Assembly: GCA_000165345.1 (NCBI GenBank)
Contig: CM000434.1
Location: forward strand, 992,001-1,056,000
Length of the DNA: 64,000 bases
Direction: 5' to 3'
Of this stretch, positions 8,458 through 57,952 are shown piece by piece. Under the pieces are notes generated by a model, which had not been told where the DNA came from, ran no database searches, and saw nothing but the letters and a program-made list of their open reading frames with translations. Made by a program: the position numbers and the translations under genes. Position 1 is the stretch's first letter. The number at the start of each line of letters is the position of its first letter.

Positions 8458-9828
8458 ATGAATAAACATAGAAATTTTTTAAGAAAGTTATGTTCTGGCC
8501 CGATATTATTATTAATAATTTTGAGCTTATCCAATAGTACTGAAGTGGATAAAGCTATTAATTTTAAAGAAAACTTACAATCAAAAGAATCAACATTTTC
8601 AACAGGGCTTAGAATACCAAATTATAATAATCATTCTGAAATTTGTAGATTATGTGGTTGTGACTCTACGAAGAATGTAAATGTAGAAGGTTTTAAATCT
8701 TTTACATGTAGTAACTGCAACAAATCCAAAATTCAAGAAGGAGATTGCATTTTGCAAGGAGCAATAAATGATTCAAACAATAACAAAACTGAACTAGTTC
8801 ATGGACTAGAAACTTCAGTTTTTGGAGATTATAGAAGTTTGTTCTTTGGGAAATCTGACTTTTTAACCAGTAGAAGCTATAGAAATAATCTATTGGCTCG
8901 TATTTTTGAACCAGAATTTACATGGGAAAATTTTTCACATGGAAGTATTAAAGATAATTGTAAAATATACAGAGATGAAAATGATGATTTTGAACATTTT
9001 AAGCTTAGTTTTACTTATACACTACATGGCGACCGAAATTGTACACGTCTTTTACTTCATTTTGTGAATAAACACACTGGAAGTACTCTATATAAGAATT
9101 TAAGTCCATTTAAAGAAATAGAAAGTGATTATGATTTAAATTCATTGATGGTTTTTAGGCATGATGATATCAAAGTTAGAGTAGATTCTCTTGAGAAGGT
9201 TAATCTTCACCAAGAATTCAATATCACTTCATACGACTCACCTCCCAAATTCCTATTTAGTTCTGAACAACAAGAATGGGTACCCGTTAGTTTACGGAAT
9301 CAAGAAATTATTGTTAATCCAAAAATTATTCATGAAAGGTTATTAATTATATTTCAGCTCATTAACTCCCAAAGTTCAACTCCAAGCTGCAAAATGGACA
9401 ATGTTAAAGTCGAAGTTGTTGTTCAATGTAAATCTGTAGCTTTCCCGCCAAACCCAAAATACAATAAGGATTTTGTTCAAGATAAACTTAAGAAAATGCA
9501 TTCTAAGTATGATGATAAAATTTTTAAGCTTTTCTTACAAAAATTTGAAGAAAAACTTATGCATGTTCTTGGCTCAATTCCTAATGCTCTACTCACTACA
9601 AATAGTAACAAGTTAATAACGAATACACCCTTGAGCAACTTTTCAATTCCTTGCAAAGAAGCTATTTATCTTGGCGATATTCCAAAGTTAATGACCAAAT
9701 TTAATTATACCTCTAAATTTAATGAACTTGCTAATTCTGGTTCCTATTCTACTTCAACACCAACTTTTGAAGATGTTGACGAAAATAAGCTTTTTAATGA
9801 CATCGAAGCTGCACTTAATACTAACTAA
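8458..9828 (+). CDS. secreted cysteine-rich hypothetical protein with N-terminal signal peptide
   Basis: 456 aa. Hydrophobic N-terminus (ILLLIILSLSNS), multiple Cys clusters (CRLCGCDS…CSNCNKS) and many N-glycosylation sequons. E2F-like sites at 8275-8301 upstream. Confidence 0.6.
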   Translation: MNKHRNFLRKLCSGPILLLIILSLSNSTEVDKAINFKENLQSKESTFSTGLRIPNYNNHSEICRLCGCDSTKNVNVEGFKSFTCSNCNKSKIQEGDCILQGAINDSNNNKTELVHGLETSVFGDYRSLFFGKSDFLTSRSYRNNLLARIFEPEFTWENFSHGSIKDNCKIYRDENDDFEHFKLSFTYTLHGDRNCTRLLLHFVNKHTGSTLYKNLSPFKEIESDYDLNSLMVFRHDDIKVRVDSLEKVNLHQEFNITSYDSPPKFLFSSEQQEWVPVSLRNQEIIVNPKIIHERLLIIFQLINSQSSTPSCKMDNVKVEVVVQCKSVAFPPNPKYNKDFVQDKLKKMHSKYDDKIFKLFLQKFEEKLMHVLGSIPNALLTTNSNKLITNTPLSNFSIPCKEAIYLGDIPKLMTKFNYTSKFNELANSGSYSTSTPTFEDVDENKLFNDIEAALNTN

Positions 9829-22220: not shown

Positions 22221-24395
22221 ATGATTCCGAATGGATCAAAACTTGAGCTTGGAACTTTAGTATTAGGTTCTGAAACAGTAAGAAAAGGATGGAATGCATT
22301 TTCAACTTTAAATAATGCAATAGATGGAGTTAGAAAAGTGGCAAATGATGTAGTAGGATATAATAATTCAACAACAATAGGAAATGAGAATTATAAAGGA
22401 GAATTGGAAAATAATAAAATAGTAAGTATAATAGAGAAAATAGAAGTAGGACAGGTATATGGAAGATTAAAAAATGATTTAAAATTAATACAAATATTTG
22501 AAAGAGAAACAAAATCAATGGGAACTTTAGAAATTATTTCAATTAATAATAATTTAGACTTTTCATATTTAAATATAAGATGGAGACGAAAAATGGGTGA
22601 AAAATTAATTGATATACAAGGTAAAGATTCAAGCCTAAAATATAACTTAACAGCTGATGATGTAGGAACAATTATTATTATAGAAATATATCCAAAAGGA
22701 GAAGCAAATGATCCTTTAAATATTACATATTGTGAATTAGGACCTATAGAAATAGATGATACAACAAAGATATCTTTATCAAAATCTTTAAAAACAGGTC
22801 TTATTAGATTCCCTGTAGAAATTATAAAAGATGAATTTGAAAGCTTAATAAATCCAGAAAATTCTTCAAAAGAATTAAAAAATGATGAAGATTCAATAAT
22901 GACAAAAGATATTTTGGTAGTAACAAATGATGATGTTAAAGTAATTAAAAATGGAATGACAAGTTCAAATTCAAACTTTGAAAAGAAAATTGTATGGTCA
23001 GCAAAATACTTTGGTGGTAATATACATATTCAATTAAATCATCAATCATCATCTTGTCAAGAATTCACTCTTTGTTCTGGATACGATATTCATAAACAAA
23101 AGATATCAATTAAAACAACAAGTAGAAATGCTAGAGATATTGCAGCTTTAACAATTAGATGTTTAAATATTAGACACACAATATCATTAGAAGCTATAAT
23201 TGGAGGTGGAGTTTCCTGGATCCCAAAAAACTCAACAGTAAATGATTCAGATAATATGGAAATTGAAGAAAATAGAAAATTAAATATTTTTGCTTATATA
23301 GGACGTCTAGAAGATGAAATTGCAAATTTAGAGAATAACAAGGAAAAACTGAACGAAGATAAAAAACTTCTTCAAACTGAAAAAGCTATTTTAGAAAATG
23401 AATTAGCTGAGACAATTTCAGCTTATCAAGATATAATTTCTCAATATCAACAAGAAAAAGATACTAAAACCAATACTAACAAACAAACCAAAGAATTTAA
23501 CATAGAATTTGGGCTTGAAAAGAACACAGGAATTAAACAATCCAACAATAGTCCAAACAAAAAGTCGATTCAATCAAATTCAAATAATTCTCATAAATCT
23601 ACCTTACTACATGGTTACAGTGGTACCTATCCTATAAATAATTCAAAACAAGATGGATCTAGCAATTCAGAAAATAATAATAACTCACAGAAAAATGAAT
23701 CCATTCAACAAAATTCCACTGAAATTAATAAAATAATTGAAGAAAATGCTTCTCTTAAAGAGTCCATTTCTCAACTTAATAAAAAATTTGAAAATGAAAT
23801 TGGCGCCAAAGAGTCAATGGAGCGCATGCATGCAGAAATTGAAGAATTGCGCGGGAGATTGGAAAGGTCGGAAAAAGAAAAGGAAGACTATAAAAGATTA
23901 AATGAAAAATTAGATGGCGAAATCTTTGTTAAAAATCAAGAATTAGAGAGTATTAAGTTAGGACAATGTTTAAATTCGACTAGAAATATAGAAAAGATAC
24001 AGCAATTGGAAGATCGCATATTGGATCTTCAGAGTCAGAATTCTGAAAAACAACAAGCTATTCAAACTTTATCAACAGAAAAATCAAAGCTTCTAAAAGA
24101 CTTTTCATCATTAAAATTAGACTTTGATAAGCTTAAGGAGCAACATAATCAACTAAATAAGAGATACATAAGCTTAAATCTTGAGAATTCAAGAATTCAT
24201 GATCAAGAAAAATCATCAAAATTTGACAATGAACTCATGAATTCTGACTCTCAAAACAAAAATGACCAAGCTGTTGATATTACAAAACTAAAAAGTGAGC
24301 TTGAAGATTATAAGAAAACTAATTGTGAGCTTAACCAGACTATAACTCAACTTAAAACAAGAATACGAAGGTTAGCAATGATCAATTCTACTTAG
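22221..24395 (+). CDS. hypothetical protein, 724 aa, with C-terminal coiled-coil region
   Basis: Long ORF. C-terminal 300 aa heptad-rich (LEDRILDLQSQNSEKQQAIQTLSTEKSKLLKDF…). E2F/G-box/GCATGCA module 350 bp upstream. Confidence 0.65.
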   Translation: MIPNGSKLELGTLVLGSETVRKGWNAFSTLNNAIDGVRKVANDVVGYNNSTTIGNENYKGELENNKIVSIIEKIEVGQVYGRLKNDLKLIQIFERETKSMGTLEIISINNNLDFSYLNIRWRRKMGEKLIDIQGKDSSLKYNLTADDVGTIIIIEIYPKGEANDPLNITYCELGPIEIDDTTKISLSKSLKTGLIRFPVEIIKDEFESLINPENSSKELKNDEDSIMTKDILVVTNDDVKVIKNGMTSSNSNFEKKIVWSAKYFGGNIHIQLNHQSSSCQEFTLCSGYDIHKQKISIKTTSRNARDIAALTIRCLNIRHTISLEAIIGGGVSWIPKNSTVNDSDNMEIEENRKLNIFAYIGRLEDEIANLENNKEKLNEDKKLLQTEKAILENELAETISAYQDIISQYQQEKDTKTNTNKQTKEFNIEFGLEKNTGIKQSNNSPNKKSIQSNSNNSHKSTLLHGYSGTYPINNSKQDGSSNSENNNNSQKNESIQQNSTEINKIIEENASLKESISQLNKKFENEIGAKESMERMHAEIEELRGRLERSEKEKEDYKRLNEKLDGEIFVKNQELESIKLGQCLNSTRNIEKIQQLEDRILDLQSQNSEKQQAIQTLSTEKSKLLKDFSSLKLDFDKLKEQHNQLNKRYISLNLENSRIHDQEKSSKFDNELMNSDSQNKNDQAVDITKLKSELEDYKKTNCELNQTITQLKTRIRRLAMINST

Positions 24396-30423: not shown

Positions 30424-30485
30424 TCAAAAAGATCCACTTGATAATTTTAAGTACGAAATTTCCTGTTTTAAAATAAATTATTACT

Positions 30486-30506
30486 ATTATTATTATTATT
30501 ATTACT
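30486..30506. repeat. (ATT)7 microsatellite in 3' spacer
   Basis: tattattattattattattat. Confidence 0.85.
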
Positions 30507-30743
30507 TTCTACTAAAAAAAGAATCTAAAAGACTAAGGATGTGTATTAAAGCTAGAAATGCATGCATGCATGCAATTATAACGGTATCGATTAAACCAGC
30601 TTAAGAATTTTCTTTTCTTGAGGGTGAAAAAAAAAAATTCACTCCTAGATTATCTCATTTTCTGTTGTATTCCTTTCTTAGAGTGTTACAAAAGTCCTGA
30701 ATATACTAAACTTAGTAAACATGTAATTAAAAAAATCAATAAT

Positions 30744-53534: not shown

Positions 53535-53558
53535 AAAAGGCGCCACCTCCCCACACTA
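53535..53558. promoter_or_regulatory. E2F + G-box module aaaaggcgccacctccccacacta in 233-bp bidirectional promoter of DNA pol delta and RecQ
   Basis: Only GC-rich element between divergent ATGs 53462(-) and 53696(+). Near-identical to 21864-21884. Confidence 0.65.
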
Positions 53559-53695: not shown

Positions 53696-56668
53696 ATGGA
53701 AGATGAATCAGAATTTCAAGAAACTCATAAGAGTAGTTTAGAGTCGGAATTAAGATGGTATAAGGAGAATTTTGAACAAATAAAAAACGATTTACTCTCT
53801 AAATTGAATAAAGGCAGAAGTTCTAACTCAGAAATATCATGTGTGCTGCAAAATGAAACAAACAATATCGGTAAAATCTTTTTCGGAAAACCTATCAGAG
53901 ACTTTTCCTCGTTTTCCAATGTAATTCGAAATGTTTCAAAAAAAATTACCTTCAATAGTGATAGCCATGCATGCACACACCCGCATGCAAACACCGGTAT
54001 TGAAAATACATACGTGGCAGAGATTTCGGATAATCATGTGGACAACATAATTAGTAATCACAAAAAAGTTGAAGAGTTGTGTAAGGAAGAGAATGAAGAT
54101 GAAGTTATAGAATTGAAAGTATTGGGATGTGGAGGAAGGGAAGTAGAGGAGATTGTATCAAGCTCATCTTCTAGCAAGGAGAATTTATATACAATTTTGA
54201 ATATCCTGCCAAATTCTGACTTTTCAACGGTTAAAACAAAGTCCAGAAAGAATACAACAAAGAAAAGCTCTTCAAACGAGAAAAAGTTATTGAATTGCAG
54301 GAGAAAAGTTCAGGTCAATGAGAAGGACCAAGATTGGGAAAGGGAAGATTTTGAATGGTCAGAGGATATGAAAAGAATCAATGAGCAAGTTTTTGGCAAT
54401 GAATCATTTAGGTCAAATCAAAGACAGATAATGAATGCAGTGGTTTCTCAAAGGGACGTTTTTGTTATGATGCCAACAGGAGGAGGAAAGTCACTTTGTT
54501 TCCAGCTTCCTGGCCTTTTAAAATATAACAACCCTGCAAGTGTGACGGTGGTTATCATGCCCTTAGTTGCACTTATGGTTGACCAAATTGAACAGTTGAA
54601 TATACTCGGCATTAAATGTGCAAGTTTGAATAGTAATCAGTCTGCAGATGAGTTGAATCATATTACATCCTTACTGAAGAAGGGAGATCCTGAAACATGT
54701 CCTGCCTTTCTATTTGTAACTCCCGAAAAGCTTAAGCATTCAAAGACTTTGTTTTCACTACTAAAGCAAATTAATGATGAATCAAGATTATTAAGATTTG
54801 CAATTGATGAGGCTCATTGTGTTTGTCAATGGGGATTTGACTTTAGACCTGACTATATTCAACTTTGTAAACTCAGAGAAGAGTTCCCAAATGTCCCGAT
54901 AATAGCATTAACTGCCACTGCCACTCATAGTATTTTGAGTGATGTAATTAAACAACTAAAGATGCGATCTCCTGCTATCTTTAGTCTTTCTTTTGACAGA
55001 CCAAATCTAAAATATGAGGTAAGAGCTAAAAGTGGAAGTAAAAAAAAGATGCTCAATGAGATCTGTGAGCTGCTTAGATCTCCACGGTTTTGTAGATCAA
55101 CAAGTATTATCTACTGTTTGAGCAGAAATGAGTGCGAAGAAGTCTCCAAAGATTTGAACAAGGAAGGAATTTCTGCAACATATTACCATGGATCCATGAA
55201 AGAAGATAAGCGGAATCTGGCACAAAGAAGATGGATGAATGACGAAAAGCAGGTCATGGTAGCAACCATAGCATTTGGAATGGGAATCAATAAAAAAGAT
55301 GTTAGACTTGTGATTCATCTATCCATGCCAAAATCCCTTGAAAACTATTACCAAGAAAGTGGTAGAGCTGGAAGAGATGGACTAGAGTCTAAATGTATAT
55401 TATATTACTCTTACAAAGATGTCTCTAGATTACAAACTTTAGCAGGAGTTAACATTGAAAAACCTTCCAAAAAGTATTATACCTCCAAGAATAACTCTTC
55501 AAATAACAAATCCACAATTGATGGACTTTTAGGTATGGTGAAATATTGTGAAGAACAATATAAATGCAGAAGAACAATGATTCTAAGCCATTTTGGAGAG
55601 GATTTTAAAGGAAAATGTAAGGTTAAATGCGATAATTGTATGAGATCTGAATTAGAAAAGCCGACTAACATTAATGTGGAAGGTCTTGCTCGTCAAGTCT
55701 TTCACTCAGTAAGAATGAGCCTTCAAGAACAGGCAAGAGCTACAAAAACCTATGGATTTTTAACTTTATCTAGCTTAGCAGAAATCTTAAAAGGAAAGAA
55801 AAAGAAAGATAAGCAATCAAAAGGCTCCCTTAAAGACTGTATTGGTCTTCTTAATGATACAAATATTTGGAAGCCAGGAAATCTGCAAAGATTCCTGCAT
55901 TTGTTTATTATTAATCAGCTTTTTTCTGAGAATTTGGTTCAACTCAAAAATGGAGTATCAGTTGCTTCTCTTAAAATTGATAAACAAGCAGAAAAACAAG
56001 ATATCTATGAACTCGACTTTTCTTGTTTCAAAGCCTTACAGTTAGAGTCCATCTACTCTACTCCAATTCCAGAATCAAATAATGTTAATTTGGGCCATAA
56101 TATTAACTCATCTCTTTCCTTGTATTCTTTTAACTCAAAACAATCTTCTTCAGATATTAATTTTGCTAATAATGGCTTAATATCTAACTCTAACAACATA
56201 GAGAACTTGAATCACGATAAGAATCTCAAGGAATCCAGAAGAAAAAGACAATTCATTGATAAAGGATCTCCCCATTCAATAGTTAAGAAGAAGCAGGCAA
56301 ATTTGATGTATCAAGAATCTAACAGTGAAAATGAACAGCTTAAAGATTTTAGAAATCAATTACTTTTACTAAGAAGAAACTTAGCTGCAGAGTTTGGAAT
56401 CTCTAATACCAACTCTATTGCATCAAAGGAAGCTATTGATGCTCTTGTTGAGAATCTCCCGCTTTCATTAGATGCTCTTAAAACACTTCCTGGATGGGGC
56501 GCAAGGCAAAAACTTGAAAGATTTGGTCTCAGATTCATCTCAAAGGTCAGAGATTTTGTTGATTCCAAGTCAACCAATATGTTTTATACCGAAAAGAATT
56601 ATACTTGTCCAATTGACCTTATTAATCCTGAAGATCTGGACAAAGAACTAGATCTTATTTGGCAATAA
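53696..56668 (+). CDS. RecQ-family ATP-dependent DNA helicase
   Basis: 990 aa. Helicase core (MPTGGGKSLCFQLPG, DEAHCVCQWGFDFRPDY, RQ-C zinc region), C-terminal HRDC-like domain. Non-conserved 220-aa N-terminal extension. Alternative in-frame ATG at 54368. Confidence 0.9.
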   Translation: MEDESEFQETHKSSLESELRWYKENFEQIKNDLLSKLNKGRSSNSEISCVLQNETNNIGKIFFGKPIRDFSSFSNVIRNVSKKITFNSDSHACTHPHANTGIENTYVAEISDNHVDNIISNHKKVEELCKEENEDEVIELKVLGCGGREVEEIVSSSSSSKENLYTILNILPNSDFSTVKTKSRKNTTKKSSSNEKKLLNCRRKVQVNEKDQDWEREDFEWSEDMKRINEQVFGNESFRSNQRQIMNAVVSQRDVFVMMPTGGGKSLCFQLPGLLKYNNPASVTVVIMPLVALMVDQIEQLNILGIKCASLNSNQSADELNHITSLLKKGDPETCPAFLFVTPEKLKHSKTLFSLLKQINDESRLLRFAIDEAHCVCQWGFDFRPDYIQLCKLREEFPNVPIIALTATATHSILSDVIKQLKMRSPAIFSLSFDRPNLKYEVRAKSGSKKKMLNEICELLRSPRFCRSTSIIYCLSRNECEEVSKDLNKEGISATYYHGSMKEDKRNLAQRRWMNDEKQVMVATIAFGMGINKKDVRLVIHLSMPKSLENYYQESGRAGRDGLESKCILYYSYKDVSRLQTLAGVNIEKPSKKYYTSKNNSSNNKSTIDGLLGMVKYCEEQYKCRRTMILSHFGEDFKGKCKVKCDNCMRSELEKPTNINVEGLARQVFHSVRMSLQEQARATKTYGFLTLSSLAEILKGKKKKDKQSKGSLKDCIGLLNDTNIWKPGNLQRFLHLFIINQLFSENLVQLKNGVSVASLKIDKQAEKQDIYELDFSCFKALQLESIYSTPIPESNNVNLGHNINSSLSLYSFNSKQSSSDINFANNGLISNSNNIENLNHDKNLKESRRKRQFIDKGSPHSIVKKKQANLMYQESNSENEQLKDFRNQLLLLRRNLAAEFGISNTNSIASKEAIDALVENLPLSLDALKTLPGWGARQKLERFGLRFISKVRDFVDSKSTNMFYTEKNYTCPIDLINPEDLDKELDLIWQ

Positions 56669-56947
56669 CTTATCATAGTTATCTCTAATTTGCTTAATTA
56701 AACTATTTTTCTTATAAGTCTCTTTAACCAGATAATCATAATATTTATTCTTTACTAGAATCCATTTAATGTTATTAATATGGCAATTTGGCGGGAATTT
56801 TATGCAATTCTTATTTGTTGTGCATGGCCTCGTTTGGCGCCCAGTCTGTGTATAAATGAGGTATAATGTTCAACTTGTATTTTAATAGAAGTTGTTGGTT
56901 CAAATTTGTAGATCCAAAGTTCGTTATGATCTTATTGCATTTCCAAG

Positions 56948-57952
56948 CTAGGGATCAATGGGTTGTTTATTCAACAAGATTCCATTGAAAGATACACATA
57001 GTTTGTTGACGGATTGTCCATGTTCTAAAAAGCTGGTATTTTGTGTTTTAGATCTACTATGATATTTTGGAGCTGGAGAGAACTCTACTAAAGGGTAATT
57101 CTCAAGCTTTTTTCCTCTGAATGAAATGGTTTCTATTGATCTTCGATGTCTAAAATTGTATTTATCTTTAGTCTCAAGCTCTATTCGATCTTTATTTTTG
57201 TTAACTAAATTAGTCTCCTCTTCACTATTGGAGGAATTCTCATCATTAGAAACTTCTAAGCAGCTTGAATCAGAAGTGCAAAGATCAGTGTTTGATTCTG
57301 AGCTTATTAATAAAATTGGCTCTTCGTTCACTTGAGTATATTTACAAACATTAATTTCTTCTTGGATATTATTCGAGAAATAATGTTTAATTTTTGTCTT
57401 GAGATTATTTGCTGAGCTGTTCAGTGAATCTATTTTGTTTAATAAATCTAATTTATCTTTTTGAGAAGGCTTTTCTTTCTTTGAGATTGATATTTCCTTC
57501 AAAATATTATTTGTTTTTTTAACAAGATTGGAGTCACTTTTTCCTTCGAAAAGTTTACAACTAATCCTAAAATGAGTACAATTCTTGAAAATATAGTTTA
57601 ATTTCCTTAGTTCAAGTGTATGAAAGTGGACATCCTCCAACTCACAATCATTCTTAAGACTTATGAAAGCAAGAAACATCTTTGAGTAAGAAAGCACTAA
57701 AAATTTGTAATAAGCATCAAGTTTGTTCATGTTTGTAATTCTTTGTATTTCACTACTCATTGTTATTTTATAAGCATTGGATTCATTTCTCAAGCTAATT
57801 TCCCTGAATATATTTCCAAGTTTATTTTCAATCCTTTCACTGCATTTTTGTGAGCTTTCTGTGACTTTTCTTTCCTTATTATTTTTGAGCTTTTGTAAAA
57901 CTAAATTGTTATGTTTATAGCCATCAAAAGCTATTTTGTCAGAAATCTCCAT
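56948..57952 (-). CDS. hypothetical protein, 334 aa, Lys/Asn/Ser-rich, no recognisable domain
   Basis: 1-kb uninterrupted ORF on minus strand in 70% AT DNA. No homology recognised. Confidence 0.5.
   Translation of the reverse strand: MEISDKIAFDGYKHNNLVLQKLKNNKERKVTESSQKCSERIENKLGNIFREISLRNESNAYKITMSSEIQRITNMNKLDAYYKFLVLSYSKMFLAFISLKNDCELEDVHFHTLELRKLNYIFKNCTHFRISCKLFEGKSDSNLVKKTNNILKEISISKKEKPSQKDKLDLLNKIDSLNSSANNLKTKIKHYFSNNIQEEINVCKYTQVNEEPILLISSESNTDLCTSDSSCLEVSNDENSSNSEEETNLVNKNKDRIELETKDKYNFRHRRSIETISFRGKKLENYPLVEFSPAPKYHSRSKTQNTSFLEHGQSVNKLCVSFNGILLNKQPIDP

What the first reader, a model, noticed from the sequence alone, without database searches (positions are those of the whole stretch)
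56787..56843. Two E2F-like sites in a convergent 3'-3' spacer; candidate unannotated transcript
tttggcgggaa (56787) and tttggcgccca (56833) lie between the RecQ stop (56668) and the 3' end of minus-strand gene 56948-57952, where no 5' end of an ORF of at least 60 aa exists. Elsewhere these motifs are almost exclusively in 5' regions. This could mark the promoter of a lncRNA/antisense RNA or a small intron-containing gene missed by ORF scanning.
Basis: inference. Interest (0 to 1): 0.5.

Follow-up and report, generated by a model that had tools for sequence, protein, structure and literature searches.

The report
Likely promoter of known RecQ antisense RNA
The two E2F-type motifs are real and conserved, and they most likely form the promoter of an already published Cryptosporidium parvum long non-coding RNA (Cp_lnc_287) that runs antisense across the RecQ helicase gene, so this is an ordinary example of a known kind of element.

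Summary
The window is Cryptosporidium parvum chromosome 6. The genes are RecQ (cgd6_4420 by inference), cgd6_4430 and DNA polymerase delta.

**Observation.** TTTGGCGSS occurs 18 times in the window against 0.14 expected. This is the only one of seven convergent spacers that carries it.

**What the spacer is not.** It encodes no conserved ORF, no Rfam family and no unusually stable RNA fold.

**The transcript already exists.** Cp_lnc_287 (CPATCC_0016043; Li et al. 2021) is identical to the minus strand of 53756-56622. It is 2867 nt, unspliced, and antisense to almost the whole RecQ gene. Its assembled 5' end lies 165 nt and 211 nt downstream of the two sites, which is outside the 100 bp those authors scanned for motifs.

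**Fit to the known promoter motif.** Read on the minus strand, site 1 (TTCCCGCCAAA) matches their lncRNA-upstream E2F/DP1 consensus 11/11, and site 2 matches 10/11.

**Conservation.** Site 1 is the most conserved 11-mer in the spacer (rank 1 of 269). Together with adjacent TGCATG-type elements, it recurs at the same place in most of the intestinal-clade species compared.

**Verdict.** The start site is unmapped. Interest is low.

The parts
56787..56797 (.). E2F-like site 1: TTTGGCGGGAA on the plus strand, TTCCCGCCAAA on the minus strand (GGCGGG core)
   Evidence: The sequence is. It is one of 18 strict matches against 0.14 expected. It matches the lncRNA-upstream E2F/DP1 consensus TTSSCGCCWAA of Li et al., sheet S3, 11/11. 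It is the most conserved 11-mer of the spacer (rank 1 of 269) and is identical in chipmunk genotype I and C. ubiquitum, where mean identity is 0.58. It is also present in the L015 species.
56833..56843 (.). E2F-like site 2: TTTGGCGCCCA on the plus strand, TGGGCGCCAAA on the minus strand (palindromic GGCGCC core)
   Evidence: The sequence is. It matches TTSSCGCCWAA 10/11 on the minus strand. It is kept in C. hominis and C. meleagridis and in the L015 species as TTTGGCGCCAAA. It is degenerate in chipmunk genotype I and C. ubiquitum. Conservation rank is 71 of 269.
56799..56809 (-). Degenerate ApiAP2_1-like element next to site 1: AATTGCATAAA on the minus strand
   Evidence: It matches ANTTGCATGYA, Motif 2 of Li et al. 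sheet S3, 9/11. The aligned position reads AATTGCATGCAATT in C. meleagridis (a perfect match), TGCATGAAG in chipmunk genotype I, TTCATGCAA in C. ubiquitum and TGCATGCAC in C. felis.
56821..56826 (.). TGCATG element between the two E2F sites
   Evidence: GCATG starts at 56822. The aligned TGCATG is kept in C. hominis, chipmunk genotype I, C. ubiquitum and the L015 species. GCATGCA itself has 32 matches in the window against 3.5 expected.
53756..56622 (-). Published antisense lncRNA Cp_lnc_287 (alias CPATCC_0016043), the transcript the motifs most likely drive
   Evidence: The FASTA sequence from Li et al. 2021 DataSheet_1 equals the reverse complement of window 53756-56622 exactly. It is 2867 nt with no intron, and its longest ATG ORF is 73 aa (ends mapped). 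Sheet S5 gives the sense gene as CPATCC_0016040 (r = 0.25), the upstream gene as CPATCC_0016050 (r = 0.25) and the downstream gene as CPATCC_0016030 (r = 0.40). It is also listed in sheets S7, S8 and S9.
53696..56668 (+). RecQ/BLM-type helicase CDS (CPATCC_0016040; cgd6_4420 by inference from neighbouring IDs), the sense partner of the lncRNA
   Evidence: The ORF is. Pfam hits are DEAD, Helicase_C, RecQ_Zn_bind and HRDC. Sheet S9 names it 'RecQ bloom helicase'.
56948..57952 (-). cgd6_4430 CDS (CPATCC_0016050 by inference): a hypothetical protein, and the same-strand gene upstream of the lncRNA
   Evidence: The ORF is. An exact protein match lies on BX526834.1. Orthologues are named CHM_6g4430 and cmbei_6004430.
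56880..56947 (-). Decayed C-terminal tail of cgd6_4430, which forms the right-hand part of the spacer
   Evidence: In the CDS frame, downstream of the TAG, the sequence reads LGNAIRS*RTLDLQI*TNNF. Intact chipmunk genotype I reads QLGNAMKAQKIVESANLGRNLI.

Best explanation
The two E2F-type sites (GGCGGG and GGCGCC cores), with two TGCATG-type (ApiAP2_1-like) elements between them, form a compact RNA polymerase II promoter module. Read on the minus strand, the locus is an ordinary tandem arrangement for this genome:

- cgd6_4430 stop at 56948
- about 105 nt of 3' region
- E2F site 2
- TGCATG
- AATTGCATAAA
- E2F site 1
- transcription start somewhere between about 56785 and 56622
- the 2.9-kb unspliced polyadenylated lncRNA Cp_lnc_287, which runs antisense across almost the whole RecQ gene

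**Shown here:** the motifs, their enrichment and their conservation; the identity of the published lncRNA with the minus strand of 53756-56622; and the absence of coding or structured-RNA signals in the spacer.

**Taken from the literature:** this motif class is enriched upstream of C. parvum lncRNAs and in open chromatin.

**Inferred:** that an E2F/DP heterodimer binds here, that the lncRNA starts here rather than continuing from cgd6_4430, and what the antisense RNA does. C. parvum lacks Dicer and Argonaute. Any effect on RecQ would therefore come from transcriptional interference, from chromatin or R-loop effects, or from effects at the sense mRNA's 3' end.
For: 1. **Transcript.** A published minus-strand lncRNA has its 5' end 165 nt (site 1) and 211 nt (site 2) downstream of the motifs. 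Its sequence is an exact match to the window.
2. **Uniqueness in the window.** By the order of aliases in sheet S5, it is the only lncRNA of that data set falling in this window. Its start abuts the only one of seven convergent spacers with E2F sites.
3. **Known motif class.** Li et al. found E2F/DP1 (TTSSCGCCWAA) and ApiAP2 (ANTTGCATGYA) as the top two motifs upstream of lncRNAs: 93 lncRNAs had E2F only and 17 had both. Site 1 matches 11/11 and site 2 matches 10/11.
4. **Conservation.** Site 1 is the best conserved 11-mer of the spacer. The E2F plus CATG module sits 119-127 nt after the RecQ stop in C. hominis, chipmunk genotype I, C. ubiquitum and the L015 species. It is also present in C. 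felis and in the L010 species, where it overlaps the annotated 3' end of the 4430 orthologue. C. meleagridis has a mutated site 1 but keeps site 2 and a perfect ApiAP2 site.
5. **Independent expression.** The lncRNA's expression correlates only at r = 0.25 with the same-strand upstream gene. It also passed the authors' read-through filter.
6. **Geometry.** E2F sites in true tandem spacers of this window lie 53-347 nt from the next ATG, so the distances here are in the normal range.
7. **Open chromatin.** E2F is the dominant motif in ATAC-seq open chromatin of sporozoites.
Against: - No transcription start site is mapped. The 5' end at 56622 comes from short-read assembly.
- Both sites lie outside the 100 bp that Li et al. 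scanned, and the lncRNA is not in their motif sheet.
- The motifs are close to palindromic, and the geometry is symmetrical. They lie 119 nt and 165 nt after the RecQ stop, and about 105 nt and 151 nt after the cgd6_4430 stop. Direction therefore cannot be read from the sequence.
- The module is absent from C. canis, C. ryanae, C. xiaoi and C. andersoni. Li et al. nevertheless report RecQ antisense expression in the distant C. baileyi and in P. falciparum. Antisense transcription of RecQ therefore does not strictly need this module.
- E2F/DP binding to such sites has not been shown experimentally in Cryptosporidium.
Confidence: 0.6

Rival explanations
1. Read-through, or a polycistron-like transcript. 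The minus-strand RNA over RecQ is mainly a 3' extension of the cgd6_4430 transcript. The E2F sites then sit in an internal spacer of that long transcript rather than acting as its start.
For: cgd6_4430 and Cp_lnc_287 are on the same strand and 326 nt apart. Xiao et al. report that 160 of 201 internal spacers of polycistronic transcripts carry an E2F motif, so such spacers can be transcribed through. Li et al. say short reads separate lncRNAs poorly from read-through.
Against: The transcript passed the authors' read-through filter, which removed transcripts less than 50 bp from the upstream CDS that were always co-transcribed with it. Correlation with the upstream gene is only 0.25, and it is listed among uncorrelated lncRNAs. 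This rival does not explain why site 1 is the most conserved element of the spacer. Xiao et al. also describe internal monocistronic transcripts alongside the polycistronic ones, so this rival and the best explanation can both be true.
Confidence: 0.15
2. The module fires rightwards, alone or bidirectionally. It would give a plus-strand transcript starting near 56.85-56.95 kb, antisense to cgd6_4430.
For: The motifs are nearly palindromic. A TATAAA lies at 56851-56856 just right of site 2. More than half of ATAC regulatory peaks are annotated as bidirectional, and Li et al. propose bidirectional promoters.
Against: No lncRNA antisense to CPATCC_0016050 appears in sheet S5. Plus-strand 20-mers at 57000 and about 57210 are absent from the held lncRNA FASTA. 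The TATAAA is not conserved beyond C. hominis. The FASTA was cut when stored, and the 766-lncRNA CpBGF annotation could not be consulted, so absence is not proven.
Confidence: 0.1
3. The sites form a 3'-located regulatory or boundary element for the protein-coding genes, producing no transcript of their own. Examples would be a downstream E2F input to RecQ (a DNA-repair gene), or a nucleosome-free region that helps terminate the two convergent genes.
For: E2F motifs in C. parvum are enriched near DNA-metabolism and DNA-repair genes. The module keeps a constant distance from the RecQ stop in five species.
Against: RecQ already has a GGCGCC site in its own 5' spacer, at 53539. No downstream E2F enhancer is described in this organism in the papers read. 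An adjacent transcript exists that explains the module more simply.
Confidence: 0.08
4. The spacer holds a small protein-coding exon or gene. The candidate is the 73-codon stop-free frame on the minus strand at 56649-56870, in which site 1 would encode Phe-Pro-Pro-Asn.
For: A stop-free run of 73 codons is uncommon in 30% G+C sequence. It is present in both C. parvum and C. hominis.
Against: It has no ATG. The frame is interrupted or shifted in C. meleagridis, chipmunk genotype I and C. ubiquitum, while the motif itself stays conserved in a different frame. It has no Pfam match at E up to 1. No gene is called there in any of the 15 loci fetched, although in L010 a 69-aa ORF call overlaps the equivalent spacer.
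Confidence: 0.02
5. The sites are chance occurrences or non-functional leftovers.
For: Four strict sites also lie inside ORFs without an obvious role.
Against: The window expectation is 0.14. There are two sites within 57 nt. Site 1 is the conservation peak of the spacer, and the module recurs in unalignable species.
Confidence: 0.02

Closest known systems
Cp_lnc_287 / CPATCC_0016043, natural antisense lncRNA of the RecQ helicase gene (Li et al. 2021, PMC7840661)
   Same: It is the same locus. The published sequence is identical to the minus strand of window 53756-56622. It is detected in oocysts, sporozoites and at 24-48 h (VST 6.9-7.5), and also detected in C. hominis and C. baileyi.
   Different: The paper gives no promoter motif for it, because both E2F sites lie 165-211 nt upstream of the assembled 5' end, outside the 100-bp scan. 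The link between motifs and transcript, and the cross-species conservation of the motif, are added here.
E2F/DP1-type and ApiAP2_1-type cis elements of C. parvum promoters (Bankier 2003; Oberstaller 2013, PMC3734150; Xiao 2025 preprint)
   Same: The cores GGCGGG and [C/G]GCGC[G/C] flanked by T/A runs are the most abundant upstream motifs, and were first noticed on this very chromosome 6. E2F and GCATG elements co-occur within 40 nt at five other places in the window, four of them in 5'-containing spacers (6976, 21865, 32749, 40583).
   Different: Here the module has no protein-coding 5' end on either side. The TGCATG-type element next to site 1 is degenerate in C. parvum itself (TTATGCAA).
Antisense RNA XLOC_003015 over the P. 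falciparum RecQ orthologue PF3D7_0918600 (Broadbent 2015, as listed in Li et al. sheet S9)
   Same: It is an antisense transcript over the orthologous helicase gene.
   Different: Plasmodium has no E2F/DP factors, and no sequence similarity was detected between the two lncRNAs. The promoters therefore cannot be homologous.
Antisense transcription from nucleosome-depleted 3' ends of genes (the P. falciparum model of Siegel 2014, as discussed by Li et al.)
   Same: [quoted passage not shown]
   Different: Here a specific, conserved transcription-factor motif is present, rather than promiscuous initiation.

Membership tests
C. parvum E2F/DP1-type cis element | Sequence match to the consensus (TTSSCGCCWAA; cores GGCGGG or [C/G]GCGC[G/C]) | tested here: met
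   Site 1 matches 11/11 with a GGCGGG core. Site 2 matches 10/11 with a GGCGCC core.
C. parvum E2F/DP1-type cis element | Over-represented and confined mostly to non-coding, 5'-proximal DNA | tested here: met
   There are 18 matches against 0.14 expected. Density is 0.08 per kb in CDS against 1.1-2.1 per kb in spacers.
C. parvum E2F/DP1-type cis element | Bound by E2F/DP proteins, or lying in open chromatin | not testable with these tools
   No ChIP or ATAC coordinates were available; the preprint's supplements are not held. Binding has not been validated in this genus.
C. parvum E2F/DP1-type cis element | Evolutionary constraint on the site | tested here: met
   Site 1 is rank 1 of 269 11-mers and is identical in chipmunk genotype I and C. 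ubiquitum. It is present in C. hominis, the L015 and L010 species and C. felis. It is lost in C. canis and absent from C. ryanae, C. xiaoi and C. andersoni.
Promoter of a C. parvum natural antisense lncRNA (Li et al. 2021 class) | A non-coding transcript longer than 200 nt on the strand opposite a protein-coding gene, adjacent to the element | tested here: met
   The published Cp_lnc_287 equals the minus strand of 53756-56622, with a longest ATG ORF of 73 aa. The RNA-seq itself was not re-analysed here.
Promoter of a C. parvum natural antisense lncRNA (Li et al. 2021 class) | Motif within 100 bp upstream of the transcript's 5' end (the criterion used in the paper) | tested here: not met
   The sites lie 165 nt and 211 nt upstream of the assembled 5' end at 56622. 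The lncRNA is absent from sheet S3. The 5' end is a short-read estimate.
Promoter of a C. parvum natural antisense lncRNA (Li et al. 2021 class) | Initiation independent of the same-strand upstream gene | tested here: inconclusive
   r = 0.25 with CPATCC_0016050, and it passed the read-through filter. There are no 5'-end data.
Small or intron-containing protein-coding gene | Open reading frame conserved in related species, or a recognisable domain | tested here: not met
   The 73-codon frame is broken in three species. There is no Pfam match. There is no ORF of 60 aa or more.
Structured small RNA (snoRNA, snRNA, tRNA and the like) | Match to a covariance model, or a fold more stable than shuffled sequence | tested here: not met
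   Rfam gives nothing at gathering score in the window, and nothing at E up to 1 in 56500-57100. There is no tRNA. The fold z-score is -0.82.

The most novel reading that the evidence does not exclude
E2F/DP controls RecQ from both ends. A GGCGCC site sits in the RecQ/DNA-polymerase-delta divergent promoter (53539), and a conserved E2F module at the 3' end drives a full-length antisense RNA. The same cell-cycle factor would then switch the helicase gene on and also limit or time it by antisense transcription. This would be a conserved sense/antisense circuit for a genome-stability gene in an organism without RNAi. P. falciparum, which lacks E2F, has independently kept antisense transcription of its RecQ orthologue.
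Probability: 0.1. Interest if true: 0.5.

Novelty: already known. Interest (0 to 1): 0.2.

Why it matters
This result has little wider significance. It shows that an apparently misplaced promoter motif in a 3'-3' spacer is explained by a lncRNA gene that older annotations lack.

It also adds a small correction to the published picture. A 100-bp upstream scan anchored on short-read 5' ends misses promoter motifs such as these. The share of C. parvum lncRNAs with E2F-type promoters (about half in Li et al.) is therefore probably an underestimate.

The conserved site gives a precise target of two GGCG cores. Mutating them would test whether the RecQ antisense RNA has any function.

Tried and rejected
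1. **Small gene or exon.** A 73-codon stop-free frame on the minus strand (56649-56870) looked coding, and site 1 would encode FPPN. It was rejected because the frame is not kept in C. meleagridis, chipmunk genotype I or C. ubiquitum, and it has no Pfam match.
2. **A 3' intron joining cgd6_4430 to that frame.** I found no plausible GT donor by eye, and five in-frame stops intervene. The stretch after the stop is instead a decayed C-terminal tail.
3. **Structured RNA.** Rfam at gathering score and at E up to 1, ARAGORN, and a fold z-score were all negative.
4. **Plus-strand lncRNA antisense to cgd6_4430.** It is not in Li et al.'s FASTA or tables. The file was truncated when stored.
5. **Other out-of-place motif sites.** I asked whether the sites at 9444, 11989, 23802, 30565 and 39041 also mark published lncRNAs. 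No match was found 400 nt to either side.
6. **ATAC, Iso-Seq or sncRNA coordinates.** None could be obtained for this locus, because no supplementary files are held for PMC11761812, PMC12179316 or PMC9465071.
7. **Direction from motif orientation.** Asymmetric sites occur in both orientations relative to genes in this window, so orientation is uninformative.
8. **The module in distant species.** It is absent from C. ryanae, C. xiaoi and C. andersoni.

Full report
**Provenance.** The 334-aa protein encoded at 56948-57952 (-) is found unchanged on BX526834.1, which I recognise as C. parvum chromosome 6 (Bankier et al. 2003). It is also on a further NCBI assembly and on Logan contigs that carry the same gene order. 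Its orthologues are named CHM_6g4430 and cmbei_6004430, so the gene is cgd6_4430. The 990-aa ORF at 53696-56668 (+) carries DEAD, Helicase_C, RecQ_Zn_bind and HRDC domains. The 1084-aa ORF to its left is DNA polymerase delta. The window has about 30% G+C and long intron-free ORFs.

**Observation.** Both motifs are at the stated coordinates. They lie in the 279-nt spacer between two stop codons, and no ORF of 60 aa or more begins there.

- TTTGGCGSS occurs 18 times against 0.14 expected, and TTGGCGC occurs 16 times against 0.70.
- I built a gene map from the long ORFs plus the Tim10 gene. On that map, 12 of the other 16 strict matches lie in spacers containing a 5' end, 4 lie inside ORFs, and none lies in the other six convergent spacers.

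The motif is the E2F-like element long known in this genome, with cores GGCGGG and [C/G]GCGC[G/C]. It was first noticed on chromosome 6 itself.

**What the spacer is not.**

- *Not a structured RNA.* There is no tRNA and no Rfam family, even at E up to 1. The RNA fold is no more stable than shuffled sequence (z = -0.82).
- *Not a coding exon.* A 73-codon stop-free frame on the minus strand (56649-56870) at first looked like an exon, with site 1 encoding Phe-Pro-Pro-Asn. It has no ATG. It is interrupted or shifted in C. meleagridis, chipmunk genotype I and C. ubiquitum, while the motif persists in another frame. It has no Pfam match.
- *Partly a dead gene tail.* The right-hand 70 nt of the spacer is the decayed C-terminal tail of cgd6_4430. 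After the TAG the same frame still reads LGNAIRS*RTLDLQI*TNNF, against QLGNAMKAQKIVESANLGRNLI in the intact chipmunk genotype I orthologue.

**What is there: a published transcript.** I searched the supplementary FASTA of Li et al. 2021 (PMC7840661) with 20-mers from both sides and both strands. This gave one hit, Cp_lnc_287(-).

- *Identity.* Its full sequence equals the reverse complement of window 53756-56622. It is 2867 nt, collinear, with a longest ATG ORF of 73 aa.
- *Position.* It is antisense to nearly the whole RecQ CDS. Its assembled 5' end is 165 nt from site 1 and 211 nt from site 2, on the downstream side in minus-strand terms.
- *Expression (sheet S5).* The alias is CPATCC_0016043. 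VST expression is 6.9-7.5 at all five stages. Correlation is 0.25 with the sense gene, 0.25 with the upstream same-strand gene and 0.40 with the downstream gene.
- *Other listings.* It is among the lncRNAs uncorrelated with neighbours (S7). It is among the 167 also detected in C. hominis and C. baileyi (S8). It is among the 10 whose P. falciparum orthologue also has an antisense RNA (S9).
- *Annotation status.* That set of lncRNAs was carried into the IOWA-ATCC annotation and used for the CpBGF one. I did not see this locus in either.
- *Why no motif was reported for it.* Li et al. report E2F/DP1 (TTSSCGCCWAA) and ApiAP2 (ANTTGCATGYA) as the top motifs within 100 bp upstream of lncRNAs. Cp_lnc_287 is not in that sheet, as expected, because its sites lie beyond 100 bp.
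- *Fit to their consensus.* On the minus strand, site 1 is TTCCCGCCAAA (11/11), site 2 is TGGGCGCCAAA (10/11), and the element next to site 1 is AATTGCATAAA (9/11).

**Conservation.** I fetched the syntenic locus (polymerase delta, RecQ, convergent 4430 orthologue) from eleven other Cryptosporidium genomes or assemblies.

| Species | Site 1 | Site 2 | CATG-type elements |
|---|---|---|---|
| C. hominis | kept, 119-122 nt after the RecQ stop | kept | TGCATG kept |
| Chipmunk genotype I | kept, 119-122 nt | degenerate | kept |
| C. ubiquitum | kept, 124-127 nt | degenerate | kept |
| L015 species (Logan SRR18693150) | TTTGGCGGGGA, about 122 nt | TTTGGCGCCAAA at about 169 nt | one TGCATG kept; element next to site 1 reads TACATGTA (10/11) |
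| C. meleagridis | mutated (TTTGGGGGGAA) | kept | perfect AATTGCATGCAATT |
| C. felis | GGCGCCAAT | not seen | TGCATGCA |
| L010 species (Logan SRR31860986) | GGGCGGGAAATGCATG, inside the annotated 3' end of the 4430 orthologue | not seen | adjacent |
| C. canis (47% G+C) | absent | absent | none next to the RecQ 3' end |
| C. ryanae, C. xiaoi, C. andersoni | absent | absent | none next to the RecQ 3' end |

In the five-species alignment, the site 1 11-mer is the most conserved of 269 windows. Identity is 0.98 overall, and 1.0 in the two distant species, whose mean is 0.58. Site 2 ranks 71st. Site 1 is therefore under constraint as DNA and not as coding sequence. Site 2 looks younger, or subject to turnover.

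**Mechanism.** Seen from the minus strand, this 'convergent' spacer is a normal tandem spacer. It runs: upstream gene stop, about 105-150 nt, E2F and TGCATG elements, next transcript. In the true 5'-containing spacers of this window, E2F sites lie 53-347 nt before the start codon they most plausibly serve. GCATG elements accompany them within 40 nt at five other places, four of which are 5'-containing spacers.

The most likely reading (confidence 0.6) is that the module is the promoter of Cp_lnc_287, presumably read by the parasite's E2F/DP factors. The true start probably lies upstream of the short-read 5' end.

- *Inferred, not shown:* factor binding, the start site, and any effect on RecQ.
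- *Possible modes of action:* C. parvum lacks Dicer and Argonaute. Transcriptional interference, chromatin or R-loop effects, or effects on the sense 3' end are the candidate mechanisms.

**Rivals.**

- *Read-through from cgd6_4430.* The two are on the same strand, and E2F motifs are common in internal spacers of polycistronic transcripts. The low correlation, the authors' filter and the conservation argue against it as the whole story.
This cannot be excluded from sequence, but it has no reported transcript.
- *A 3' regulatory element without its own transcript.* This is possible but unnecessary.
- *Coding and chance explanations.* Both are contradicted.

**Caveat.** RecQ antisense RNA is reported in C. 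baileyi and P. falciparum. The E2F module is missing from the distant Cryptosporidium species I could examine. The module is therefore a clade-level solution and not a universal requirement.

**Comparison and novelty.** The transcript, the motif class and the general rule that E2F and ApiAP2 motifs sit upstream of C. parvum antisense lncRNAs are all published. Two things are added here: the assignment of these two sites to this lncRNA, which the 100-bp scan missed, and the demonstration that site 1 is the conservation peak of the spacer across the intestinal clade.

The one membership criterion that fails is 'motif within 100 bp of the 5' end'. It depends on an uncertain short-read 5' end. This lowers confidence but does not change the kind of element.

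**Verdict.** The finding is already known in kind and in transcript, and interest is low (0.2). The most novel reading not excluded is an E2F-driven sense/antisense circuit on RecQ, using the GGCGCC at 53539 plus this module. I give it about 10%.

Noticed in passing
window 56880-56950 (minus strand): cgd6_4430 ends at a TAG where the chipmunk genotype I and C. ubiquitum orthologues continue (K/Q). The next 70 nt or so still read as a recognisable tail riddled with stops. This is a recent C-terminal truncation in C. parvum and C. hominis. C. meleagridis is annotated as 326 aa with a different end.
   Followed up: partly
window 30559-30574, in the convergent spacer 30424-30743: GCATGCATGCATGCA, a triple ApiAP2_1-type site, lies in another 3'-3' spacer with no gene 5' end nearby. 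It could be another antisense promoter. No matching lncRNA was found in the held part of the Li et al. FASTA.
   Followed up: partly
window 9444, 11989, 23802 and 39041: Four strict E2F-like sites lie inside long ORFs. The one at 23802 is followed by GCATGCATGCA at 23824-23834, which makes a full promoter-like module about 800 nt before the next gene's ATG. No published lncRNA was found 400 nt to either side.
   Followed up: partly
window 53539-53544: The 233-nt divergent spacer shared by RecQ and DNA polymerase delta contains a single palindromic GGCGCC. RecQ is therefore flanked by E2F-type sites at both ends.
   Followed up: no
window 53968-53989 (inside the RecQ CDS, about 270 nt after its ATG): Two GCATGCA elements 15 nt apart lie within coding sequence, close to the 3' end of Cp_lnc_287 at 53756.
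   Followed up: no
window 56649-56870 (minus strand): A 73-codon stop-free frame without an ATG is shared by C. parvum and C. hominis only. It overlaps the last 20 nt of the RecQ CDS. It is judged non-coding.
   Followed up: yes
L008 (C. canis) against the other loci: The C. canis locus has 47% G+C against about 30% in the others. Its RecQ-4430 spacer is only 87 nt, and it has lost the E2F module. This is a strong compositional shift within the clade.
   Followed up: no
window 56697-56702 (+) and 56881-56886 (-): ATTAAA hexamers lie 29 nt after the RecQ stop and 62 nt after the cgd6_4430 stop. The first is kept as (T)ATTAAA in all five alignable species. They are possible poly(A) signals and would place both mRNA 3' ends outside the E2F module. 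This is inference only.
   Followed up: no
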